A stretch of 42,569 bases of DNA from a virus (IMGVR_UViG_2870469529_000003:1-42569); one strand, 5' to 3'; positions 2,589-10,347 are shown, counted from the stretch's first letter. Notes: generated by a model not told the origin, from the letters alone. Numbers and translations: made by a program.

Positions 2589-4389
2589 AACTATATATTT
2601 ATTAATATTTGCTTTTGTTATATCAACATATTTAAGTGGACGATTTCCATATAACATAGTAACTAACTCTGACTCAATATACGCCTATTCATTATTTAAA
2701 TCTATATTAACCGGAAATTCAAGTATTTTTGATTGGTACCCATCACCATCACCTTATGTATTCCCTGATCTATTGTTGTACTTTTTTTCTTTCTTGATAG
2801 GTTTTGGCGATGTGTTTTACGTACCTCTGGTTTATATTGTGTTGCAAATGTCATTGTTTTATATAAGCATAATATACATGCTGCGTAACTTATTCAATGA
2901 TAAAAATCACAGTGAATTATCATTATTGATTCTTTTGTCTTCAATTTTTATGGCATATTATTATGAGACTTACTCTATAATGCTAACGCCATTATTTCAC
3001 TTCGGTGTTTTAATTGCGTGCTTTTTTTCAATTGGATTATTATATGGAAGGGAAAACAAATCGCCAACAAAATACTTTGCACTATATGTTTTATCGTTTA
3101 TAAGCTCTTATTCTGATAACATGTATGTGATCTGGTTTTCTTTACCATCAACTGGAATAGCGATTACTTTATTAATCTTAAAAAATGATAAAAAGTATTT
3201 ACTGCCATCTTTTCTTTGCCTTGCAGCATCTCTATTAGGTATGCTCTCAACAAGGTATTTATTTATTAACTCAAGCATGTATGGCTATTCATTTAACGAG
3301 TCTGTCATCACAAATAACTTAATTGATGCATTCAATATTTTTTCATATTCATGGTATGGTTGCTTATTGCTAATATCTTTATTTATAATTGCTATTTACT
3401 CAGCTAAGTGCACAATAGAAAAAAACTATGGTGTGAAGTTTATAATTTCACTTTATTACATATATTCTTTTTTATCTACTTTAATCATCTTATCATTCCA
3501 AGATTCACTACCGCAGGCCGATAGGTACTACTCAATATCATTCTTTATGATGTTTCCTATGATATTTTATGTGTTTTTGTCTTTTGTAAAGATAAAACAT
3601 ATAACTTACGTATGCGCATTTTTCATTATTTTGGTTTTTTTATCTCTTCCTCATGTTAGCTTTATAGGTGCTGATCAGCAATGTTTGATACAAAACATTA
3701 AGTCAACCAATATCCGCAATGGAGTTTCTGGTTATTGGGATTCGAAAAGGCTAATGGCATACGATGATACATTATCAATATCACAAGTTGACCAAAATAT
3801 GAATGCATACAGATGGATAACATCTGAGACGCAATATCACAATGACGCTTATTTTGCGATATTAAATAACAATGACAGCCAGTCTATTAGGTATGATGCA
3901 TTAATAAATTTAAACGGCAATCCTTCACATGTAGGGCAATGTGGTGATTATAAAGTTTTGTTTTATAATAAACCAATAATAATAAACTCACTAAAAAATG
4001 TAGGTGATACATCAATTTTTAGTGGCGCACTCCTTAACTACGCTAATTACAAAAAGGATGGTAATATAATCTATCCTGCGGATGATTTTTCTGGAGGTAA
4101 CTTTAGCTTTGGTCCATTTGCAAAAGCTTACGAAGGAGATTATGAATATGTAGTAACAATTAAAAACAATAAAATGGAAGATGTAAATGGTTATATTGAT
4201 GTGGCAAATAAAAGTGGGAAAAACATTATCGACATAAATAACTTCAACTCAAACAGTTCTGTTATAAAGGTTAGCGGGAAATTCTCAATAAATTCCGATG
4301 ATAACAACACCAACCTAGAGATAAGGACGTTTCTTAGACATAGATATGATATCAGCATTGATAATATATACATAAAAAAAACAAAATAA
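2578..4389 (+). CDS. Serotype-specific O-antigen glucosyltransferase (GtrC-type), 603 aa: polytopic membrane domain plus ~200-aa hydrophilic N/D/S-rich C-terminal domain
   Basis: Third gene of the gtr operon, overlaps gtrB by 11 nt; many predicted TM helices; visibly AT-rich compared with neighbours. Confidence 0.6.
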
Positions 4390-4453: not shown

Positions 4454-6382
4454 TTAACTTGTAAAAACATTAACTAGCGTTATCTTTCCGCCTGGACGTT
4501 TATATATATAGCTATATCTATCATTATCCGGGGAAATTATTGTCTGACTGCTGTATTCTATGGCTAACATCGGTGTATTAATAGTGTACTCATTGTCTGC
4601 ATAAATGGCATATGAATCACTTTGTTCTGCCTTAAATACACAAGCAGCACCGATAGTACATCTGGTACTTGGTGATAATGTTCTGATAGCTGCTTTGTTT
4701 TCAGTGCCAGAATCAGAGTTTGTACCCCAGTTATTAAACTCAACTGCATCTATGGTCAATGAGCATTCATCACCCAATACTATTGGATTATTATTTACGC
4801 CTCTAATACTGCCAGCAGAAAATGACATAGATGTAGAATTAGTTGCATTAAGGAAGTTATAGGTACGTCGACTGGGTGTGCTGTATTCTCCCATGCCAAG
4901 TGCATCAAAAGAAGACATAACAAAACCATTAACTTTATCAGCCCTTATAGCTGTCATGTTAGTATTCAATGCGGTTGATGCGTGAACAAAATGAGCGTTA
5001 GATATTTGCACAGATTCTACTTTACGTACTGAGTTTCCGTACAGTGCTAAAATCGGGATAGATACTCCTGAAGTATTAGTTGTCTCACCAATATAAATAT
5101 TACTAAGCGCGGTATTTATATGATTTGTTGAAGTATCTTGTGGCTCTAAAGCTATAGCTCCAATATCATATCCTCCATTGCAAAATATATTGCTAGCTCG
5201 ATTGCCACCGGCTGATAACCTTAATGGGCAGCTTCCTCCGTACACTTCCACAGTGTCTAGAACAGAGTCGCTGTACACACGTATGCCACCTCCCGTTGCA
5301 CGGATTGAGATATCTGATGCATCGGTAGCTTCGCAATAAATATCTCGAAATCTTGCAAGTCCTTGACCGTCATAGATAAACCATGTATTGAATCTCTTGC
5401 CAGTTAACTTCTCGTAATACCACCCAGCACCGCGAGTATGCAGTATGGCGTGATTGCACCTCCACTCCCCGTCGAACTGGATGTTTTTGAACTTAATGCT
5501 GTCCTGGCCATCATTAGACTCACCGGAACTAAAGATAAAGTTCTGATTATCATTTAGTGGTTTTATTACGGTAGTGCCAGTATATGCCTGATTAGCGCCC
5601 TGACCTAAAAATGTCAGGCCTTGGGTATGTCCGGGTATAGTGCAGGGTGACATTCTAAGCTCTCCTTTTGGGAGAATAATGTGTCGCACGCCAGCATCTA
5701 TAGCTCTCAGTATTGCTGGGGTTTGGTCAGCAATATGAACTCCACCACCATAGTTTTCAATGTGATCTGAAACAGGTTCTTTTTTCCAGTTGGTATCTAC
5801 TGTCGGTGTAGTGGGAACCATTGAACCTGGTGTGATTTCCCCCTTGTATGAGTAGTATTCATTATTAAATTTGAATGCCTGTAGCGCAGAGTGCAATGGT
5901 GAATTGCTACCAAAATATCCAGATGGAATAAATGGATGCAAATCATATTGCTGTAATTCAAATAGTTTTATTGCATTATCAAGCGTAGAATCTTCATATC
6001 CAACAAGTGAGGCCCCTTCAGGACCAGATAACTCTTTCCTTAGCTGATCAGGATCATACTTCAGCACATTAGGAAAATAGAACTGCTGTGCACCATACGC
6101 ATCATAAACAGCCATAGAATGGCCTTGCACGGTAACGAATTTGGCAATCTGTCCGTTATATACCGGATAACCAGCAGCGTTAATGATGATTGGTTGAGAA
6201 ACAGGAACGTGAGAGCCGTCTTCGTTCTCCACATAAACCTGAATCTGGTTTTCTGGATTTACCGGATCAGTGTCAATTTTACCGATATAAATTTTACCAT
6301 TGGCTACGGCTTTAAAAGAACGCGCCATAGTGAAGAGTTGCGATGGCATTGATACGATCACATTGGCTGTAATGTCTGTCAT
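4454..6382 (-). CDS. Tailspike protein (P22 gp9-like N-terminal head-binding domain, divergent receptor-binding domain)
   Basis: N-terminus [11 protein letters not shown]...[14 protein letters not shown]...LKYDPDQ matches the P22 tailspike head-binding domain; the remainder is a different beta-helix-type domain. Confidence 0.85.
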
Positions 6383-6439
6383 TTAATTTGCTCCAGATAC
6401 AAGGAATCACCGCAGCATGGCTACGGCAATGCGTCATTG

Positions 6440-6454
6440 AGACCACAGTGGTCT
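6440..6454. promoter_or_regulatory. Candidate Mnt operator, perfect 7-1-7 palindrome AGACCACAGTGGTCT
   Basis: Perfect dyad in the 135-bp gap between tailspike start and mnt start; same architecture as the symmetric P22 Mnt operator. Confidence 0.5.
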
Positions 6455-6517
6455 TATTGTGGATATAACCAGTAGATCATATGATGCCGATCCACTTACA
6501 AAAGTGAGGCATCAAGA

Positions 6518-6769
6518 ATGGGAAGAGATGACCCGCAATTTAATCTGCGGCTACCTTACGAATTAAAGGAAAAACTAAAACAGCGAGCCAAATCCAATGG
6601 CCGCTCTCTTAATTCAGAATTAGTTCAGATAGTGACTGATGCTGTATCAAAGCCATCCAAAATTTCAGGCTATCGAGACGATGCGGAACGCATCGCTGAT
6701 GAGCAGTCTGAACTTGTTAAGAAGATGGTGTTTGATACGCTGAAGGATTTGTACAAAAAACCCACCTGA
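6518..6769 (+). CDS. mnt: Mnt-like ribbon-helix-helix repressor (83 aa)
   Basis: MGRDDPQFNLRLPYELKEKLKQRAKSNGRSLNSELVQIV... is an Arc/Mnt-type RHH; same length and C-terminal tail (DAERIADEQSELVKKMVFDTLKDLYKK) as I recall for P22 Mnt. Confidence 0.8.
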   Translation: MGRDDPQFNLRLPYELKEKLKQRAKSNGRSLNSELVQIVTDAVSKPSKISGYRDDAERIADEQSELVKKMVFDTLKDLYKKPT

Positions 6770-6780
6770 CGGTGGGTTTC
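6750..6780. terminator. Bidirectional terminator hairpin between convergent mnt and the 322-aa gene
   Basis: AAAAAACCCACC-TGAC-GGTGGGTTTCAT: stem flanked by an A-run on one side and T-run on the other. Confidence 0.55.
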
Positions 6781-6784
6781 ATAA

Positions 6785-7753
6785 TTAGATTTCTGGTTTC
6801 ATTCTTCCGAAAACCTTTTCTATTCCTTTTTCGTATTCTTCTCTTGTCTCACTCATCGCTGCGACACCAAGAAGCTTACCGATATGCTGACGCAAAGCCT
6901 TGACACCAATTTCAGAAAGGAACAGATGCAACTTATCAGATTGTTTTCCGTTCTCGTCTCGGCTGGCTCTAATTTGTTCAAGGATTTTACCTTTACTCTT
7001 TGCTAGCGGGGTGTATATCTGCATGTTGGTTAGCTGCCCAAAACGAATAGGCCGTCCTTTCTCTGGCCTATTCAGGCCGTACAGTCGATACCACTCCTCG
7101 TATAGCTCATCTGGAAATTCCTTTTCATATTGACGAGCCTCTTCACGAACAAACGCTTTGAACTCGTCAATGACAGCCTGAACTTCTGGACGATAACCAG
7201 CAAGCGCATACGCAACCCCCTTAATTCCCGCCTTAGCGGAGGCATTAATAAGTCTCTGTGCTGCGGCGGCTGCCTTTAACCGTGATTGTGGTAGATCGTC
7301 ATTATCTTTGGCTTCTATTAGTGCCCTACCAATATCAACAATTGCTGTAATGTCATAACCTAACGCTTGATGAACGGTTTTAGACTTCGAAGTAAGTTGA
7401 AATTTATAGGGATTTTCCATTTTTCGCTGCAATTCTAGATCTCGGTATTTGCTCATATACTGAGCGCCAAGCAGTTGATCTAAATCCCTGGCATGTTCAC
7501 CAATCCCTAGCAACTGAGATAATCCAGTTTTCGTAACAACGACAGTTTTCGACTCGTCATCCAGTACATAACATTCAGCGTCAATGCCAAAATCATCTAA
7601 AAAGTTACCACGATGAGTTGCCCTGAGAATCTTACTTTTCCATCTTGCAGCAGCTGCTTTCTTTGCTATTTCAGAACGCTGCTCTTTAGTCAGCGACTTT
7701 GCGCGAGCGATCCCGCCCTTAGCTTTCCCTTCGCCACTTTTCTTTTCAGTCAT
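6785..7753 (-). CDS. Hypothetical protein (322 aa from MTEKKSG...), basic N-terminal segment, function unknown; occupies the immI/sieA cargo slot
   Basis: Long ORF; plausible start at 7753 preceded by AAAGG; N-terminus GGIARAKSLTKEQRSEIAKKAAAARW looks like a DNA-binding motif; own promoter upstream. Confidence 0.7.
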   Translation of the reverse strand: MTEKKSGEGKAKGGIARAKSLTKEQRSEIAKKAAAARWKSKILRATHRGNFLDDFGIDAECYVLDDESKTVVVTKTGLSQLLGIGEHARDLDQLLGAQYMSKYRDLELQRKMENPYKFQLTSKSKTVHQALGYDITAIVDIGRALIEAKDNDDLPQSRLKAAAAAQRLINASAKAGIKGVAYALAGYRPEVQAVIDEFKAFVREEARQYEKEFPDELYEEWYRLYGLNRPEKGRPIRFGQLTNMQIYTPLAKSKGKILEQIRASRDENGKQSDKLHLFLSEIGVKALRQHIGKLLGVAAMSETREEYEKGIEKVFGRMKPEI

Positions 7754-7754
7754 A

Positions 7755-7844
7755 ATGCAAGCACCTTTGTTGTGATGTATGCTTGCATTATATGCACTGT
7801 ACACACATACAAGCAAGCATAAAACTAAAACAAAATGCTTGCAT
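7755..7844 (-). promoter_or_regulatory. Promoter (-35 TTGCTT, 18-nt spacer, -10 TATAAT) bracketed by two inverted-repeat pairs of the 9-10-bp motif ATGCAAGCA / ATGCTTGCAT
   Basis: Motif copies at ~7755-7763, 7779-7788, 7812-7820 and 7835-7844 in alternating orientation; perfect TATAAT on the minus strand at ~7787-7792. Confidence 0.5.
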
Positions 7845-7909
7845 TACAACCGCGCTACTCCAACTACACATTATCATCTGGTATCCTGCTCAAAACTAAG
7901 GAGGTTGGT

Positions 7910-8098
7910 GTGAAGAAAAAATTTGTAAACGTTGCAAAGTGCGCAATTTTTATATTTTTTATGACCTTTTACGGATTTAGTGCCGGAGAAGGTTTCGATC
8001 GTGATGCCAATGCATTCAGTTTCTTTTGTCTGTCTATAGTGGTCATAATTGTATGGGTGGAGTTAAAGCAAACATTGTTTCATGTGCTAGGGAAATAA
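7910..8098 (+). CDS. Small hydrophobic (probably membrane) protein, 62 aa from a GTG start
   Basis: AGGAGG 5 nt upstream of GTG at 7910; sequence VKKKFVNVAKCAIFIFFMTFYGF...SFFCLSIVVIIVWVEL has two hydrophobic segments; transcribed divergently from the late operon. Confidence 0.4.
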   Translation: MKKKFVNVAKCAIFIFFMTFYGFSAGEGFDRDANAFSFFCLSIVVIIVWVELKQTLFHVLGK

Positions 8099-8115
8099 CC
8101 ATCCATGGCTTTCCG

Positions 8116-10347
8116 TTACTTCTGGTTATCATCACTGTTCATCCAGTACATGATGCCTAGCCTTGATATGGTTTTCTTATCTGATTCTGGAAGTGAGTTG
8201 TAAAACGAGCGCCAAGCAGAAGAGCGTCTTACAGTTGTATCAACGATGCTTTCTGGTGCTTGTTTTACTGCCAGCCTTGCTGCTTTCTGGAATTCTGGTG
8301 AGCTAATTAGCTTTTCTGCAGATTCAATTGATTCAGCGCCGCCCATCGCCCTGATTTTGCTGGCGACTTTTGCCCCAATTTCTGACCCAGCAACAGCACC
8401 TACTGCACTGAACGGTCCTGACACAGTTGAACCAACCGCAGTGCCAATGCGTTGGGCATGGTTAGCAACAAATTCATTTGCCGCAGTGACGCGATTAAAC
8501 CGTTTGACGAACTCGTTTAGTCTTCCTGTAGTTATCTCGTAAGATTTTGCGTCTTTGATAGCCTTTGCGACCTTATATACATCGTTCAGACCTGACATAG
8601 TCTCTTTTGGTAAATGTCGGGCAAGATTGCGCATCTGCCCGTTTGCTAACATGTTTTGATACCAGTCAGCAAACCCTGCAGGATTAAAATCAGCGCCACG
8701 TTTTCCGTTCGAAAGCATATCCCGAAGACCTGTTCCCAGTAGCTCGGTTCTTAGCTTCCTGGACGGCGTGTTTTGCATCAATTCACGAAATCCTTTGGCA
8801 TCGCCTTTCGACATTGCCTGTAGTGCTGTAGTTGCTTTGCGAGAAACATCACCGTTCAGCGTTCTGCCAGTTAGATTAATCATTTGCTCTTCCATGCTTT
8901 TTCGCATCTGAACAAGCCTCTGAGCAACTTCAAAATCACGTAATGCATTTGTCTCTGACAGCGCCGCCTTTTGATCATCGGCGAGCGAACCGTAAAGCCT
9001 CGATAAAGCAGCGCGATCAGCATCTTTATATGGTCCAGAATTCTTATGAAGTGCATCACCAACAAGTCGTCGTTGCTTATTGAGATTTGCATAAGTTAAT
9101 GCGCCGTTCTTGCCTGGATTAACTGCCCGAAAGACTCTCTTTTCAATAGGGTCAAGGTTTTTCATCCCGCCAAGATCTTCTGCCACCTGTTTGAGCATTG
9201 ACCTTGTTGATGGCGCATCAATTTTTGCACCTGCAGGCATCGCCTTTTCAACATTGCGATAAAGCTGGTCGCTTCGTTTCATCAGCGCAGACATTCTTCC
9301 ATTGACCGTATCAATAAACTTGTCGCTCATACCAAGAGCATCTTTTGCACCGGAAACGCGATCAATTATCTCCCCCGCACCCTGTGCTAGCTGCCTGATT
9401 GCTTCATTTTCCTGCACCTGTAGAGCAGAACCCGCACGGGACTTGATTGCTTGCTCAACTGCCTTGTATTGCTCGTTCCCGGAAAAGTGTGAAGGGAGTA
9501 ATGAATCAACATTAAGCCTTTCAGCAGACTCCAGAACTTCAGCCTGAGGATTGATATCTAGTTCATCAAGCGATGAAGCGAGATTTGGCCTTTTTTGTGC
9601 TGCTACTGTGCGAACGACTTCCTCTGGGTTCCTCGTCGCAGGAGTCATTGGTACACCTTGTGCTGCTCTTGCCTCTGCGGCATGAACCGCAGGATTTGTT
9701 GCCTCTGCGGCATCACCGGAGAATGGTGATGTTTCTGTTGGCGCAGTGGTCGCTCTCTGTGCAGATGTTTTATTGCCACTAATTATATTTGATGCACCAC
9801 GAACACCACGGGTAACGCCATTTATCAGGCCATGCGTAGCAATGTTAAGTCCGGCATTAATAGCGGCATTTTCGGCAAAATCACCCCGTTGATTCGCCGC
9901 GTCAGCGAGAGAACCAATGACCATGTTTCCAGCTACACCTGCTCCAGGAACAAGATAACCGCCTATTGACTCTCCAGCTTGCGCATAAGGGTCTGTCGGT
10001 CGATAGACAGGGCGATAAACATCATCCAAAACCTTGGGGCCACCAAGCCCCTGGCTGATTGCATTAATCAGACTTGCGCCACCCTGTAATACGTCAAATG
10101 GTATGTTTACCAGACCACGACCAGCCTGTTCTGCAATTTGCCCTGCACTTTGACCACCAGTGAGCCAATCGCCAGCTTGTTGCATCAATGATGGTTCTTC
10201 CCGTGTTGGTGCATTATTGGCCTGATTAACTGTTTGTTGCTGAACAGCCTGACCAGCAAAATACTCATCAATGGCGGTGCCAATATCTTCCGTGCTCGTA
10301 CCATCAGGGAAGGTAAATGTCTTACCGTTTGCAGTTACTTTCATCAT
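8116..10347 (-). CDS. Ejection (internal virion) protein, P22 gp16-like, 743 aa
   Basis: Position in the P22 gene order (20, 16, cargo, 9) and Ala/Gly/Gln-rich composition typical of E-proteins. Confidence 0.65.

What the first reader, a model, noticed from the sequence alone, without database searches (positions are those of the whole stretch)
6383..8110. Cargo module in the immI/sieA slot: Mnt and its operator are retained, arc/ant are absent, and an unknown 322-aa protein plus a divergent small membrane protein sit in their place
In P22 the interval between gene 16 and the tailspike holds sieA and the immI region (mnt, arc, ant). Here only an Mnt-like RHH gene (6518-6769) and a perfect operator palindrome (6440-6454) remain. 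The adjacent 322-aa gene (6785-7753) is hydrophilic, has a basic N-terminus (GGIARAKSLTKEQRSEIAKKAAAARW) and resembles neither P22 Ant nor SieA. It has its own promoter with inverted repeats, and a 62-aa hydrophobic ORF (7910-8098) is transcribed divergently. This slot is a known hotspot for superinfection-exclusion and defence cargo in P22-like phages, so this is my best candidate for an undescribed lysogen-expressed system.
Basis: partly seen in the sequence, partly recalled or inferred. Interest (0 to 1): 0.78.

Follow-up and report, generated by a model that had tools for sequence, protein, structure and literature searches.

The report
Self-regulated P63C prophage gene cassette
Beside the Mnt repressor gene of this P22-like E. 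coli prophage sits a common but uncharacterised 'P63C-domain' gene with its own promoter and four conserved binding sites; it probably represses itself and may be a distant cousin of the BstA anti-phage protein, which is untested, while the small membrane gene next to it is separate cargo in the sieA slot.

Summary
The features exist, but the layout was misread. arc, sar and ant are cleanly missing, and Mnt with a cognate operator remains. This mnt-only layout is already common in sequenced P22-like phages (SE1, ST160, Gally). The 322-aa gene does not replace arc/ant. It lies on the other side of mnt and coexists with arc/ant in phage vB_EcoP-611R6.

The gene is not unknown. It is RefSeq WP_000136767.1, Pfam P63C (PF10546), a very large family with no described function.

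New here:
- The gene is an autonomous cassette of promoter, gene and terminator. It has four conserved TGCAAGCA/TGCTTGCA sites over the -35, the -10/+1 and the start codon.
- These sites follow the gene into unrelated phages and hosts. They are present only where the protein has the basic N-terminal motif GGxARA...RW, which points to autorepression.
- Residues about 61-200 align weakly with the N-terminal domain of the BstA abortive-infection protein (hhalign 57-71%). Relatives often sit in the bstA slot, just downstream of the prophage repressor.
- The C-terminal domain differs from BstA, and BstA models do not match.

The 62-aa ORF is independent cargo that uses sieA's ribosome site and GTG start. 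A defence role is plausible but untested.

The parts
4454..6382 (-). Tailspike gene (context). Its leader abuts the Pant/Omnt region directly.
   Evidence: ORF of 642 aa. The N-terminal part and the 44-bp leader align to the 611R6 and P22 gene 9.
6383..6426 (-). Gene 9 (tailspike) 5' leader, fused to the Pant region by the loss of arc-sar-ant.
   Evidence: 94% identical to 611R6 and 77% to P22 over 6200-6426, ending at 6426.
6440..6454 (.). Mnt operator, AGACCAC-A-GTGGTCT (the 17-bp version spans 6439-6455). It lies just downstream of a Pant-like promoter (-35 at 6485-6490, -10 at 6462-6467, minus strand).
   Evidence: Perfect palindrome. Same position as P22 Omnt. The arms are conserved while the centre base varies (A/G/T) in SE1, Gally and elppa4, and the arms differ from P22 together with Mnt residues 6, 9 and 11.
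6457..6485 (+). Pmnt-like promoter: TTGTGG (6457-6462), 17-nt spacer, TATGAT (6480-6485).
   Evidence: Read from the sequence by alignment with P22 Pmnt, TTGAGA-17-TATCAT. Inferred, not scored by the promoter scan.
6518..6769 (+). mnt, a ribbon-helix-helix repressor.
   Evidence: Pfam Arc and Repressor_Mnt. 77% amino-acid identity to P22 Mnt.
6761..6776 (.). Bidirectional terminator hairpin between the convergent mnt and P63C genes (CCCACC-TGAC-GGTGGG, flanked by A6 and T3).
   Evidence: Folding energy -14.2 kcal/mol on the plus strand and -16.2 kcal/mol on the minus strand, where T6 follows the stem.
6785..7753 (-). 322-aa P63C-family gene (identical to RefSeq WP_000136767.1).
   Evidence: Pfam PF10546 at E 6.8e-14; phrog_2384 at E 1.7e-104. 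100% DNA match with the RefSeq annotation in E. coli E189 and NCTC8623.
7640..7717 (-). Codons 13-38, the basic motif GGIARAKSLTKEQRSEIAKKAAAARW. Proposed operator-binding module.
   Evidence: Invariant G13, G14, A16, R17, R26, A30, R37 and W38. Predicted helical hairpin 11-39 at low to medium confidence. Presence, absence and divergence of the motif track the upstream repeats.
7154..7627 (-). [quoted passage not shown]
   Evidence: Block-mean pLDDT is 78-92 over residues 41-190 apart from one block at 70, and falls to 65 over 191-200. hhalign aligns residues 61-201 to BstA 30-162 at Prob 57.5% (E 1e-4); with N-terminal sub-alignments the value is 70.6% (E 3.9e-5).
6803..7186 (-). Codons 190-317, the P63C module (the Pfam hit covers codons 199-286, coordinates 6896-7159).
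   Evidence: hhalign Prob 98.8%, E 9.5e-17, to residues 119-240 of the KilA-N+P63C family. Pfam hit.
7755..7764 (.). Operator-like site S1 (ATGCAAGCAC on the plus strand, TGCTTGCA in gene sense). It abuts the start codon at 7751-7753.
   Evidence: It is found 7-11 nt upstream of the ATG in most homologues, partly as the variant TGCTTACA.
7779..7788 (.). Operator-like site S2 (ATGCTTGCAT). It overlaps the -10 element and the predicted transcription start.
   Evidence: The -10 TATAAT lies at 7787-7792 on the minus strand.
7811..7820 (.). Operator-like site S3 (AAGCAAGCAT). It contains the -35 TTGCTT (7811-7816, minus strand), 18 nt from the -10.
7835..7844 (.). Operator-like site S4 (ATGCTTGCAT), the distal site.
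7795..7814 (.). SOS-box-like element in the promoter spacer (gene sense GCTTGTATGTGTGTACAGTG). Sub-threshold in this copy.
   Evidence: 9 of 60 distinct homologue promoters score at least 12.7 bits at the same position.
7879..7909 (+). sieA-type leader with Shine-Dalgarno TAAGGAGG (7897-7904).
   Evidence: 97% identical to the 34 bp that include the P22 sieA ribosome site and GTG.
7910..8098 (+). 62-aa ORF with two hydrophobic segments, sitting in the sieA slot. Independent cargo.
   Evidence: phrog_21338 at E 4.3e-45 over 1-62/62. No similarity to SieA. GC content 35%. Found without the P63C gene in phiv205-1, JEP4 and UPF_BP1.
8116..10347 (-). Gene 16 homologue, an ejection (DNA transfer) protein. 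Context only.
   Evidence: ORF of 743 aa. Annotated as DNA transfer protein in relatives.

Best explanation
The 322-aa gene is a portable, self-contained prophage cargo gene (a 'moron') of the P63C family. It carries its own sigma-70 promoter. Four TGCAAGCA/TGCTTGCA sites lie upstream of the -35, over the -35, over the -10/+1, and at the ribosome site and start codon.

The most likely mechanism is autorepression. The protein binds these sites through its basic N-terminal helical motif (residues about 13-38). This holds expression at a low, constant level that does not depend on the regulation of whichever phage carries the cassette. The cis-element and its link to the motif are shown by comparison; binding itself is inferred.

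The rest of the protein has two parts. A central domain is probably related to the DNA-associated N-terminal domain of BstA. The C-terminal P63C module is shared with KilA-N+P63C proteins.

From its family's preferred positions (directly downstream of prophage repressors, next to immI, near integrases), I infer that it is made in the lysogen. I further infer that it acts on incoming or competing phage DNA, as a BstA-like replication block or abortive infection.

Mnt, its operator and the Pant-like promoter are an ordinary arc/ant-less immI remnant. The 62-aa ORF is separate envelope cargo in the sieA slot.
For: Family and size:
- Pfam P63C above its cut-off and RefSeq naming.
- 1682 homologues with full-length conservation; 3150 cluster representatives at E<=1e-3.

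Cassette structure:
- The 98%-identical module spans window 6755-7912 in 611R6.
- -10 TATAAT, -35 TTGCTT and a terminator.

Cis-element:
- TGCWWGCA density is 15.5 per kb in -160..+9 against 0.048 per kb in the flanks, over 63 distinct upstream regions.
- The alignment shows four conserved islands separated by variable spacers.
- The same sites occur in E. coli, Salmonella ST104 (29% protein identity), Leminorella, Burkholderia, Pseudomonas and Paracoccus phages and a metagenomic phage.

Link to the N-terminal motif:
- Homologues without the motif (Javan515, Midgardsormr38, SI8, KilA-N+P63C) lack the sites.
- 933W has a divergent motif and different repeats (ACGTGCAT). DC1 varies in both.

Not an RNA hairpin:
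- There are no compensatory changes. Arm variants such as TGCTTACA simply break pairing.

Relation to BstA:
- hhalign Prob 57.5-70.6% for residues 61-201 against BstA 30-162, the region the BstA authors call KilA-N-like (PMC8585504).
- ST104 orf23, SI8 and Midgardsormr38 homologues sit exactly between the repressor and the N/24 gene, as bstA does in BTP1.
- 22 of 80 viral loci lie within 1.5 kb downstream of a CI-type repressor.
- Other copies are next to integrases or repressors in Gordonia, Pseudomonas, Burkholderia and Streptococcus phages.
Against: - There is no experimental datum for any P63C protein in the searchable literature.
- There is no hit to the PADLOC BstA model or to any other defence model, while BstA-BTP1 itself scores 1.9e-124.
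- The C-terminal domains are unrelated (hhalign 0.1%).
- The similarity in the N-terminal domain is below the level usually accepted as homology.
- The N-terminal motif is modelled with low confidence, and DNA binding by it is inferred only.
- The repeats are the same across the family, whereas BstA's aba elements are specific to each homologue. A self-immunity role cannot therefore be copied over directly.
- A subset of promoters carries an SOS-box-like element, and many copies sit beside antirepressor-type genes. Both would fit a regulatory role equally well.
Confidence: 0.45

Rival explanations
1. The protein is a regulator of phage development, an antirepressor or transcription factor of the Bro/KilA-N/Ant class. 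It would be kept silent by its operator array, and in some relatives by LexA, and switched on during the SOS response.
For: - P63C is found fused to a canonical KilA-N DNA-binding domain.
- To my recollection it was defined in the Iyer-Koonin-Aravind 2002 survey of viral transcription regulators. I did not check this here.
- Weak BFVD fold hits are enriched in Bro-N, Ant N-terminal and 'repressor domain' proteins (E 0.06-0.5).
- Copies sit beside mnt/arc/ant or similar modules in the window, 611R6, L006, Paracoccus Pkon1 and L063, beside roi in 933W, and beside Bro-N and KilA-N genes in L009.
- An SOS-box-like sequence occupies the promoter spacer. 9 of 60 distinct promoters score at least 12.7 bits, and two have a perfect CTG-N10-CAG.
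Against: - There is no similarity to P22 Ant, and hhalign gives 0.1% to the canonical KilA-N domain.
- This copy's SOS-like box scores only 9.7 bits, below every genuine box in my set.
- About half of the homologue promoters have no such box.
- The family occurs in phages with many different immunity repressors. An antirepressor would be expected to co-vary with its target.
- Copies immediately downstream of the repressor gene, some without a promoter of their own (SI8, Javan515), would be co-expressed with the repressor. That is odd for an antirepressor.
Confidence: 0.25
2. The four repeats act mainly at the RNA level. In late-operon read-through transcripts (gene 16 through to the tailspike) they would fold into a long hairpin that buries the ribosome site and start codon. 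The gene would then be translated only from its own promoter.
For: - The gene is co-oriented with the late operon, between gene 16 and the tailspike.
- The -100..+20 leader folds with -48 kcal/mol, pairing S4 with S1 and S3 with S2.
- Rfam sub-threshold hits reflect a long hairpin at 7746-7851.
Against: - No covariation: 0 core pairs show compensatory change, and the observed measures are no better than shuffles. 8 of 40 sequences carry an uncompensated C-A mismatch at one position of helix 2.
- The predicted start of the cassette's own transcript lies inside S2, so its mRNA lacks the 5' arm (sequence reading).
- The same array is kept in cassettes that are preceded by a terminator and are not inside late operons.
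Confidence: 0.1
3. The 322-aa gene and the divergent 62-aa ORF form one two-gene, lysogen-expressed exclusion system.
For: The two genes are adjacent and divergent, with a shared 156-bp intergenic region that holds the repeats. The slot is where sieA resides (PMC10883804).
Against: - The P63C cassette is found with SieA (elppa4), with an unrelated 109-134-aa ORF (611R6), and in many contexts with no such partner.
- The 62-aa ORF's DNA occurs in phiv205-1, JEP4 and UPF_BP1 without the P63C gene.
- The homology break lies exactly at 7912, between the two modules.
Confidence: 0.05
4. The cassette is a selfish, recombination-prone passenger with no benefit to the host or the phage. It would persist because it is autonomous and tightly autorepressed.
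For: - Very varied insertion sites: tail-gene islands, upstream of lysis genes, the nin region, and next to IS elements.
- Mosaic alleles share only the promoter plus the first ~40 codons, or only the 3' 454 bp.
Against: - Strong full-length purifying conservation across more than 1000 homologues down to 25-30% identity.
- No nuclease or transposase motif, and no domain hit beyond P63C.
- Preference for lysogeny modules.
Confidence: 0.1

Closest known systems
BstA of prophage BTP1 (Owen et al. 2021, PMC8585504), an abortive-infection protein with the aba self-immunity DNA element
   Same: - Both are prophage-encoded proteins of about 310-320 aa with two domains.
- Residues 61-201 align to BstA 30-162, its KilA-N-like domain, at hhalign Prob 57-71%.
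- Family members (ST104 orf23, SI8, Midgardsormr38, 22 of 80 viral loci) occupy the bstA position just downstream of the repressor.
- In both, a short repeat-bearing DNA element brackets the ribosome site and start codon of the gene.
   Different: - The C-terminal domain is P63C, not the BstA-like C-terminal domain PF26567.
- There is no match to the PADLOC BstA model.
- The protein has an extra basic N-terminal motif.
- The repeats are four TGCAAGCA sites that overlap a promoter and are shared by the whole family, not a cognate element specific to each homologue.
- The copy in this window sits next to mnt, not next to the immC repressor.
- There are no phenotype data.
KilA-N+P63C proteins (PF04383+PF10546; for example L009 3931-4686; 972 homologues)
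   Same: The C-terminal ~125 residues are the same module (hhalign 98.8%, E 9.5e-17). They are also phage cargo genes, and one is a near neighbour of a family member in L009.
   Different: - The N-terminal half is a canonical KilA-N domain, which does not match the window protein (0.1%).
- They have no basic N-terminal motif, and the one copy examined (L009) has no TGCAAGCA sites upstream.
- They are about 250 aa rather than 322 aa.
P22 immI region (mnt, Omnt, Pant/Pmnt, arc, sar, ant)
   Same: mnt, a Mnt operator at the same position, and divergent Pant-like and Pmnt-like promoters are retained.
   Different: arc, sar and ant are deleted, so the Pant-like promoter reads straight into the tailspike leader. 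The operator arms and Mnt residues 6, 9 and 11 are of a second specificity type. The same arrangement is already present in SE1, ST160, Gally and 720R6.
P22 SieA (inner-membrane superinfection exclusion protein; Leavitt et al. 2024, PMC10883804)
   Same: The 62-aa ORF uses the identical ribosome site and GTG start, and occupies the position between genes 16 and 9 where sieA always resides. It is predicted to be a membrane protein.
   Different: There is no sequence similarity. It is 62 aa with two hydrophobic segments, against 164 aa for SieA. Its function is untested.

Membership tests
Pfam P63C (PF10546) domain proteins | Match to the P63C profile above the curated gathering score | tested here: met
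   52.7 bits against a cut-off of 26.1, residues 199-286. All 33 aligned homologues match. hhalign 98.8% to the P63C part of KilA-N+P63C proteins.
BstA abortive-infection family | Full-length match to a BstA profile (PADLOC PDLC02356) | tested here: not met
   No hit at E<=10 for the window protein or for ST104 orf23 and the SI8 homologue. The positive control, BstA-BTP1, scores E 1.9e-124.
BstA abortive-infection family | [quoted passage not shown] | tested here: inconclusive
   hhalign Prob 14% (A1 against A2). This rises to 57.5% with a diversified alignment and to 70.6% (E 3.9e-5) with N-terminal sub-alignments. The alignment is collinear over 105-114 columns but falls below the usual homology threshold.
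BstA abortive-infection family | BstA-like C-terminal domain (PF26567) | tested here: not met
   hhalign of the two C-terminal halves gives Prob 0.1%. All listed BstA homologues carry PF26567, while all P63C homologues carry PF10546.
BstA abortive-infection family | Prophage-encoded, often directly downstream of the prophage repressor | tested here: met
   Met for the family: ST104, SI8, Midgardsormr38, Javan515, L007 and 22 of 80 viral loci. The copy in this window is instead next to mnt.
BstA abortive-infection family | Short DNA element at the 5' end of the gene that gives self-immunity (aba) | not testable with these tools
   A conserved repeat array does bracket the ribosome site and start codon. 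Its function cannot be tested here. Unlike aba, it is not specific to each homologue.
BstA abortive-infection family | Blocks replication of infecting phages (abortive infection) | not testable with these tools
   No experimental data were found for any P63C protein.
KilA-N domain proteins (PF04383) | Match to the KilA-N profile | tested here: not met
   No Pfam hit at E<=10 in any of 33 members. hhalign of residues 40-200 against the KilA-N part of alignment A3 gives Prob 0.1%.
P22 Ant-type antirepressor | Sequence similarity to P22 Ant, or the P22_AR_N / ANT domains | tested here: not met
   BLASTP E 0.13 over 77 residues. No such Pfam domain.
P22 immI region | mnt gene with a cognate palindromic operator downstream of Pant | tested here: met
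   Binding itself was not tested.
P22 immI region | arc, sar RNA and ant | tested here: not met
   Only 135 bp separate the tailspike start from the mnt start (6383-6517), and this stretch holds the gene 9 leader and the Pant/Pmnt region. No arc or ant homology. No Rfam hit above threshold in 6000-8400.
SieA superinfection exclusion proteins | Sequence similarity to SieA (for the 62-aa ORF) | tested here: not met
   No BLASTP hit at E<=10 to SieA of P22 or elppa4. Only the position, ribosome site and start codon are shared.
LexA (SOS)-regulated promoters | SOS box CTG-N10-CAG of genuine strength overlapping the promoter | tested here: inconclusive
   The window copy scores 9.7 bits with TTG in place of CTG, below the weakest of 23 E. 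coli boxes (12.7 bits). 9 of 60 distinct homologue promoters reach at least 12.7 bits.

The most novel reading that the evidence does not exclude
P63C-family proteins would be a large, overlooked class of prophage-encoded anti-phage proteins: 3150 cluster representatives, spread across Proteobacteria, Actinobacteria and Firmicutes phages. They would be built from a BstA-type DNA-associated domain plus the P63C effector module.

The free-standing versions carry a portable N-terminal DNA-binding motif and a four-site operator array. The array would both autorepress the gene and, like aba, mark the carrier phage's own replicating DNA as self, titrating the protein away during induction.
Probability: 0.2. 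Interest if true: 0.75.

Novelty: new variant of a known kind. Interest (0 to 1): 0.5.

Why it matters
P63C has been a named domain without a described function in anything I could search, yet it is one of the commoner cargo genes of temperate phages. This allele alone is in 74 of 5426 complete E. coli genomes.

This analysis turns it into a testable object: a defined promoter, four defined sites, a 26-residue candidate DNA-binding motif, and a specific analogue (BstA) to guide phenotype tests.

If it proves to be a defence protein, it would extend BstA-type immunity to a second effector domain. It would also explain a recurrent gene in the repressor-proximal and immI-proximal slots of many prophages, including Stx phages. 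If it proves to be a regulator, it would be a new self-contained control module.

The remaining parts of the finding (Mnt, its operator, the loss of arc/ant, and the variable cargo of the sieA slot) are ordinary mosaicism of P22-like phages.

Tried and rejected
- **RNA hairpin or riboregulator for the repeats.** Rejected as the main role. There is no covariation and no Rfam family.
- **Canonical KilA-N or Bro-N assignment of the N-terminal half.** No Pfam hit and hhalign 0.1%. Only weak BFVD fold hints.
- **Antirepressor Ant homology.** None.
- **SieA homology of the 62-aa ORF.** None.
- **Known defence systems.** PADLOC gives nothing, with a positive control.
- **NCBIfam.** Nothing for the 322-aa or the 62-aa protein.
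- **The afdb50 fold library** was unavailable.
- **Literature.** 'P63C', 'P63C domain', P63C+phage, P63C/KilA-N/Bro-N and L0095+933W gave nothing functional.
- **Two-gene system with the 62-aa ORF.** Rejected on gene distribution.
- **LexA control of this copy.** The box is sub-threshold. bstA of BTP1 has none.
- **Pfam on other cargo of the slot** (P22 hkcC-like ORF, Gally 139-aa and 171-aa ORFs, 611R6 ORF). Uninformative.
- **The consensus promoter scan** did not report the promoters. They were read by eye and by comparison.


Full report
**What is there.** The window is a P22-like (Lederbergvirus) E. coli prophage read against the late operon.
- The order of genes is: tailspike 4454-6382(-), mnt 6518-6769(+), a 322-aa ORF 6785-7753(-), a 62-aa ORF 7910-8098(+), and the gene 16 homologue 8116-10347(-).
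- The 1733-bp interval is 100% identical in E. coli E189, E148 and NCTC8623. RefSeq annotates the two larger genes there as 'Arc family DNA-binding protein' and 'P63C domain-containing protein' (WP_000136767.1).

**The immI remnant.**
- mnt is genuine: Pfam Arc and Repressor_Mnt, and 64/83 identity to P22 Mnt.
- Window 6200-6426 aligns to the tailspike N-terminus plus its 44-bp leader in both 611R6 and P22. Window 6427-6517 corresponds to the P22 Omnt/Pant/Pmnt region. So arc, sar and ant are cleanly missing.
- The palindrome AGACCAC-A-GTGGTCT (6440-6454) sits where P22 has Omnt.
- A perfect 7-N-7 palindrome is not rare by itself. The window has two, and I calculate about 2.6 expected by chance (count).
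- Its arms are conserved while the centre base varies (A, G, T) in SE1, Gally and elppa4. These phages share an Mnt with Gln6/Leu9/Leu11.
- P22 and L006 pair His6/Phe9/Met11 with GGTCCAC-N-GTGGACC. That co-variation supports a cognate repressor-operator pair.
- The mnt-only layout is not new. SE1, Gally and elppa4 were checked directly, and ST160 and 720R6 show the same contiguous match from the tailspike start into mnt.

**Where the 322-aa gene really sits.**
- It is on the far side of mnt, convergent with it across a bidirectional terminator (6761-6776; -14.2 and -16.2 kcal/mol).
- In phage vB_EcoP-611R6 the same gene (98% DNA identity over 6755-7912) coexists with arc and ant. A 54%-identical allele does the same in L006. 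It therefore does not replace arc/ant.
- The late-strand slot it occupies holds other cargo elsewhere: an hkcC-like ORF in P22 and SE1, and a 139-aa ORF in Gally.

**The 62-aa ORF is a separate module.**
- Window 7879-7912 is 97% identical to the P22 sieA ribosome site and GTG start.
- In E. coli elppa4, sieA itself starts at that point next to an identical mnt and P63C gene.
- 611R6 and Gally carry yet other envelope-type ORFs there.
- The 62-aa ORF's DNA occurs in phiv205-1, JEP4 and UPF_BP1 without the P63C gene.
- It has two hydrophobic segments, no similarity to SieA, 35% GC, and matches phrog_21338 end to end.
- sieA is known to reside always between genes 16 and 9, and to be absent from two thirds of P22-like phages (PMC10883804).
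- The hotspot idea is therefore right, but the 'system' idea is not.

**The protein.**
- Pfam finds only P63C, at residues 199-286. PHROGs assigns an unknown-function family. PADLOC and NCBIfam find nothing.
- The family is large and conserved over its full length: 1682 homologues and 3150 cluster representatives at E<=1e-3.
- This allele is in 74 of 5426 complete E. coli genomes.
- An AlphaFold model (pLDDT 73.7) shows three parts: a helical hairpin at 11-39, a well-predicted alpha/beta domain at 43-135 continuing into helices, and a helical C-terminal part.
- No solved structure resembles it. Weak BFVD hits lean towards Bro-N, Ant N-terminal and 'repressor domain' proteins.

**The main new observation: a conserved cis-element.**
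- The 156-bp region upstream of the gene holds four ATGCWWGCAT sites (7755, 7779, 7811, 7835) with alternating AA and TT centres. The only two exact matches in the window lie in this cluster.
- In gene sense the sites lie about 90 and 65 nt upstream (the latter containing the -35 TTGCTT), at about -33 (abutting a perfect -10 TATAAT), and at about -9 (touching the ATG).
- The same array precedes homologues in very different settings:
  - a lambdoid immunity region (L007);
  - a lone opposite-strand gene in a metagenomic phage (L008);
  - a tail-gene island in a Leminorella prophage (L009);
  - Salmonella ST104 orf23, at only 29% protein identity (L010);
  - Burkholderia, Pseudomonas and Paracoccus phages.
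- Over 63 distinct upstream regions from 80 viral contigs, the motif density is 15.5 per kb against 0.048 per kb in the flanks.
- The alignment shows four conserved islands in otherwise variable sequence, often preceded by a terminator.

**Who binds the sites.** Three lines of evidence point to the protein's own N-terminal motif, GGxARAxxLTxEQRxxIAxKAAxARW.
1. Homologues that lack the motif (Streptococcus Javan515, Erwinia Midgardsormr38, Salmonella SI8, and the KilA-N+P63C protein of L009) also lack the sites.
2. 933W L0095 has a divergent motif and different repeats (ACGTGCAT). Burkholderia DC1 varies in both.
3. The sites persist across hosts from Gammaproteobacteria to Alphaproteobacteria, with one copy in a Gordonia phage. 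A shared host factor is therefore unlikely.

An RNA-hairpin reading is not supported. The arms show no compensatory change and vary only by breaking pairs, although a read-through leader could fold (-48 kcal/mol). I therefore read the array as operators for autorepression. This is inferred, not shown.

**Relation to BstA.**
- A literature lead was BstA, a 307-aa prophage abortive-infection protein. It has a KilA-N-like N-terminal domain and a 63-bp self-immunity element (aba) spanning -29..+34 of its own gene (PMC8585504).
- BLASTP and a first profile comparison were negative or weak.
- With a diversified P63C alignment, residues 61-201 align collinearly to BstA 30-162 at Prob 57.5%. With N-terminal sub-alignments the value is 70.6% (E 3.9e-5).
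- The C-terminal halves are unrelated (0.1%). BstA homologues carry PF26567 instead. The PADLOC BstA model rejects the window protein while scoring BstA at 1.9e-124.
- The C-terminal 190-317 is the module found after a canonical KilA-N domain in a 972-member family (98.8%).
- The protein is therefore not a BstA family member. It looks like a domain-shuffled relative.

**Genomic niche.**
- Of 80 related viral loci, about 29 lie between gene 16 and mnt, and 22 lie within 1.5 kb downstream of a CI-type repressor on the same strand.
- ST104, SI8 and Midgardsormr38 copies sit exactly where bstA sits in BTP1.
- Others are next to integrases (Barco, Lodos, DC1), between repressor and integrase (Javan515), in the nin region beside roi (933W), or in tail-gene cargo islands.
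- This favours expression from the prophage.
- Recurrent neighbours of the antirepressor type (mnt/arc/ant, Bro-N, KilA-N, roi) keep a regulatory role alive as the main rival.

**SOS-like elements.**
- The promoter spacer carries GCTTGTATGTGTGTACAGTG, which scores 9.7 bits on a LexA matrix I built from 23 E. coli boxes recalled from memory. That is below the weakest real box (12.7 bits).
- At the same position, 9 of 60 distinct homologue promoters reach 12.7-16.7 bits, and two have a perfect CTG-N10-CAG.
- This copy is probably not LexA-controlled. Some relatives may be.

**Verdict.**
- The immI remnant and the sieA-slot cargo are ordinary.
- The 322-aa gene is a known but functionally undescribed family member.
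- This analysis adds a defined autoregulatory cassette and a plausible, unproven kinship with BstA.
- Confidence in the cis-element is high. Confidence in autorepression by the N-terminal motif is moderate (about 0.65). Confidence in a defence role is modest (about 0.35-0.4).

Noticed in passing
window 6455-6474: TATTGTGGATATAACCAGTA is the best LexA-box-like sequence in the whole window. It scores 16.1 bits on my from-memory matrix, with 0.03 such sites expected per shuffled window. It lies where P22 has the Arc operator and spans the Pmnt -35/spacer and the Pant-like -10. It is conserved in the mnt-only phages SE1 (14.6 bits) and elppa4, degraded in Gally, and absent in arc-containing P22, L006 and 611R6.
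   Followed up: partly
window 7795-7814; homologue promoters in L057, L067, L084, L040, L070, L009, L042, L069, L073: An SOS-box-like element sits in the spacer of the P63C promoter. It is sub-threshold here (9.7 bits) but scores 13.5-16.7 bits in nine homologue promoters, including perfect CTG-N10-CAG in L057 and L073. Part of the family may be damage-inducible.
   Followed up: partly
L005 (P22, NC_002371) 2850-3227, + strand: P22 has a 121-125-aa ORF on the late strand between sieA and orf59a that the RefSeq record does not annotate. It contains an HExxH-like AHECAH motif. SE1 gp64 ('similar to HK620 unknown protein') occupies the same slot. There is no Pfam hit.
   Followed up: partly
L008 3601-3858, - strand: An 85-aa ORF convergent with the P63C gene ends in the same basic motif (GGPARAAALSPKKRSSIAKKAASARW). 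The motif is therefore a mobile module that also occurs on a small separate protein. No Pfam hit.
   Followed up: partly
window 6785-7850 compared with L006 and E. coli MRE162 (hits H158/H159): The P63C gene is mosaic. L006 shares an identical promoter and first ~40 codons but is only 54% identical overall. MRE162 shares only the 3' 454 bp at 99%, next to a DnaB-like gene.
   Followed up: no
L102 (Paracoccus phage Pkon1) 2465-4920; L063 5034-7644: In distant phages the P63C homologue again lies beside an immI-like module. In Pkon1 this is an Arc-like gene, an Arc-family repressor and a KilA-N protein. In L063 it is an Ant-like gene plus a Mnt-like ribbon-helix-helix gene. This echoes the mnt adjacency in the window.
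   Followed up: partly
window 7910; L003 5528; L001 5081-5485; L098 4439-4954: The sieA slot keeps the same ribosome site and GTG while the coding sequence is swapped: SieA (164 aa), the 62-aa two-TM ORF, a TM plus coiled-coil ORF, or a lipoprotein-like ORF. The ATG annotated as the 611R6 ORF's start lies inside operator site S4 and is probably too far upstream.
   Followed up: partly
L006 7047-7583, - strand: In an E. coli P22-like prophage, a 178-aa ClpP-like protease ORF sits between the P63C gene and mnt. This is one more kind of cargo in the interval.
   Followed up: no
L011 (933W) 3880-3965: The RefSeq start of the 933W P63C protein (MCMIDL...) lies inside the repeat region. The homology and a conserved CACAACACGAG leader suggest that the true start is the downstream MLMKNDD... 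or MKNDD....
   Followed up: no
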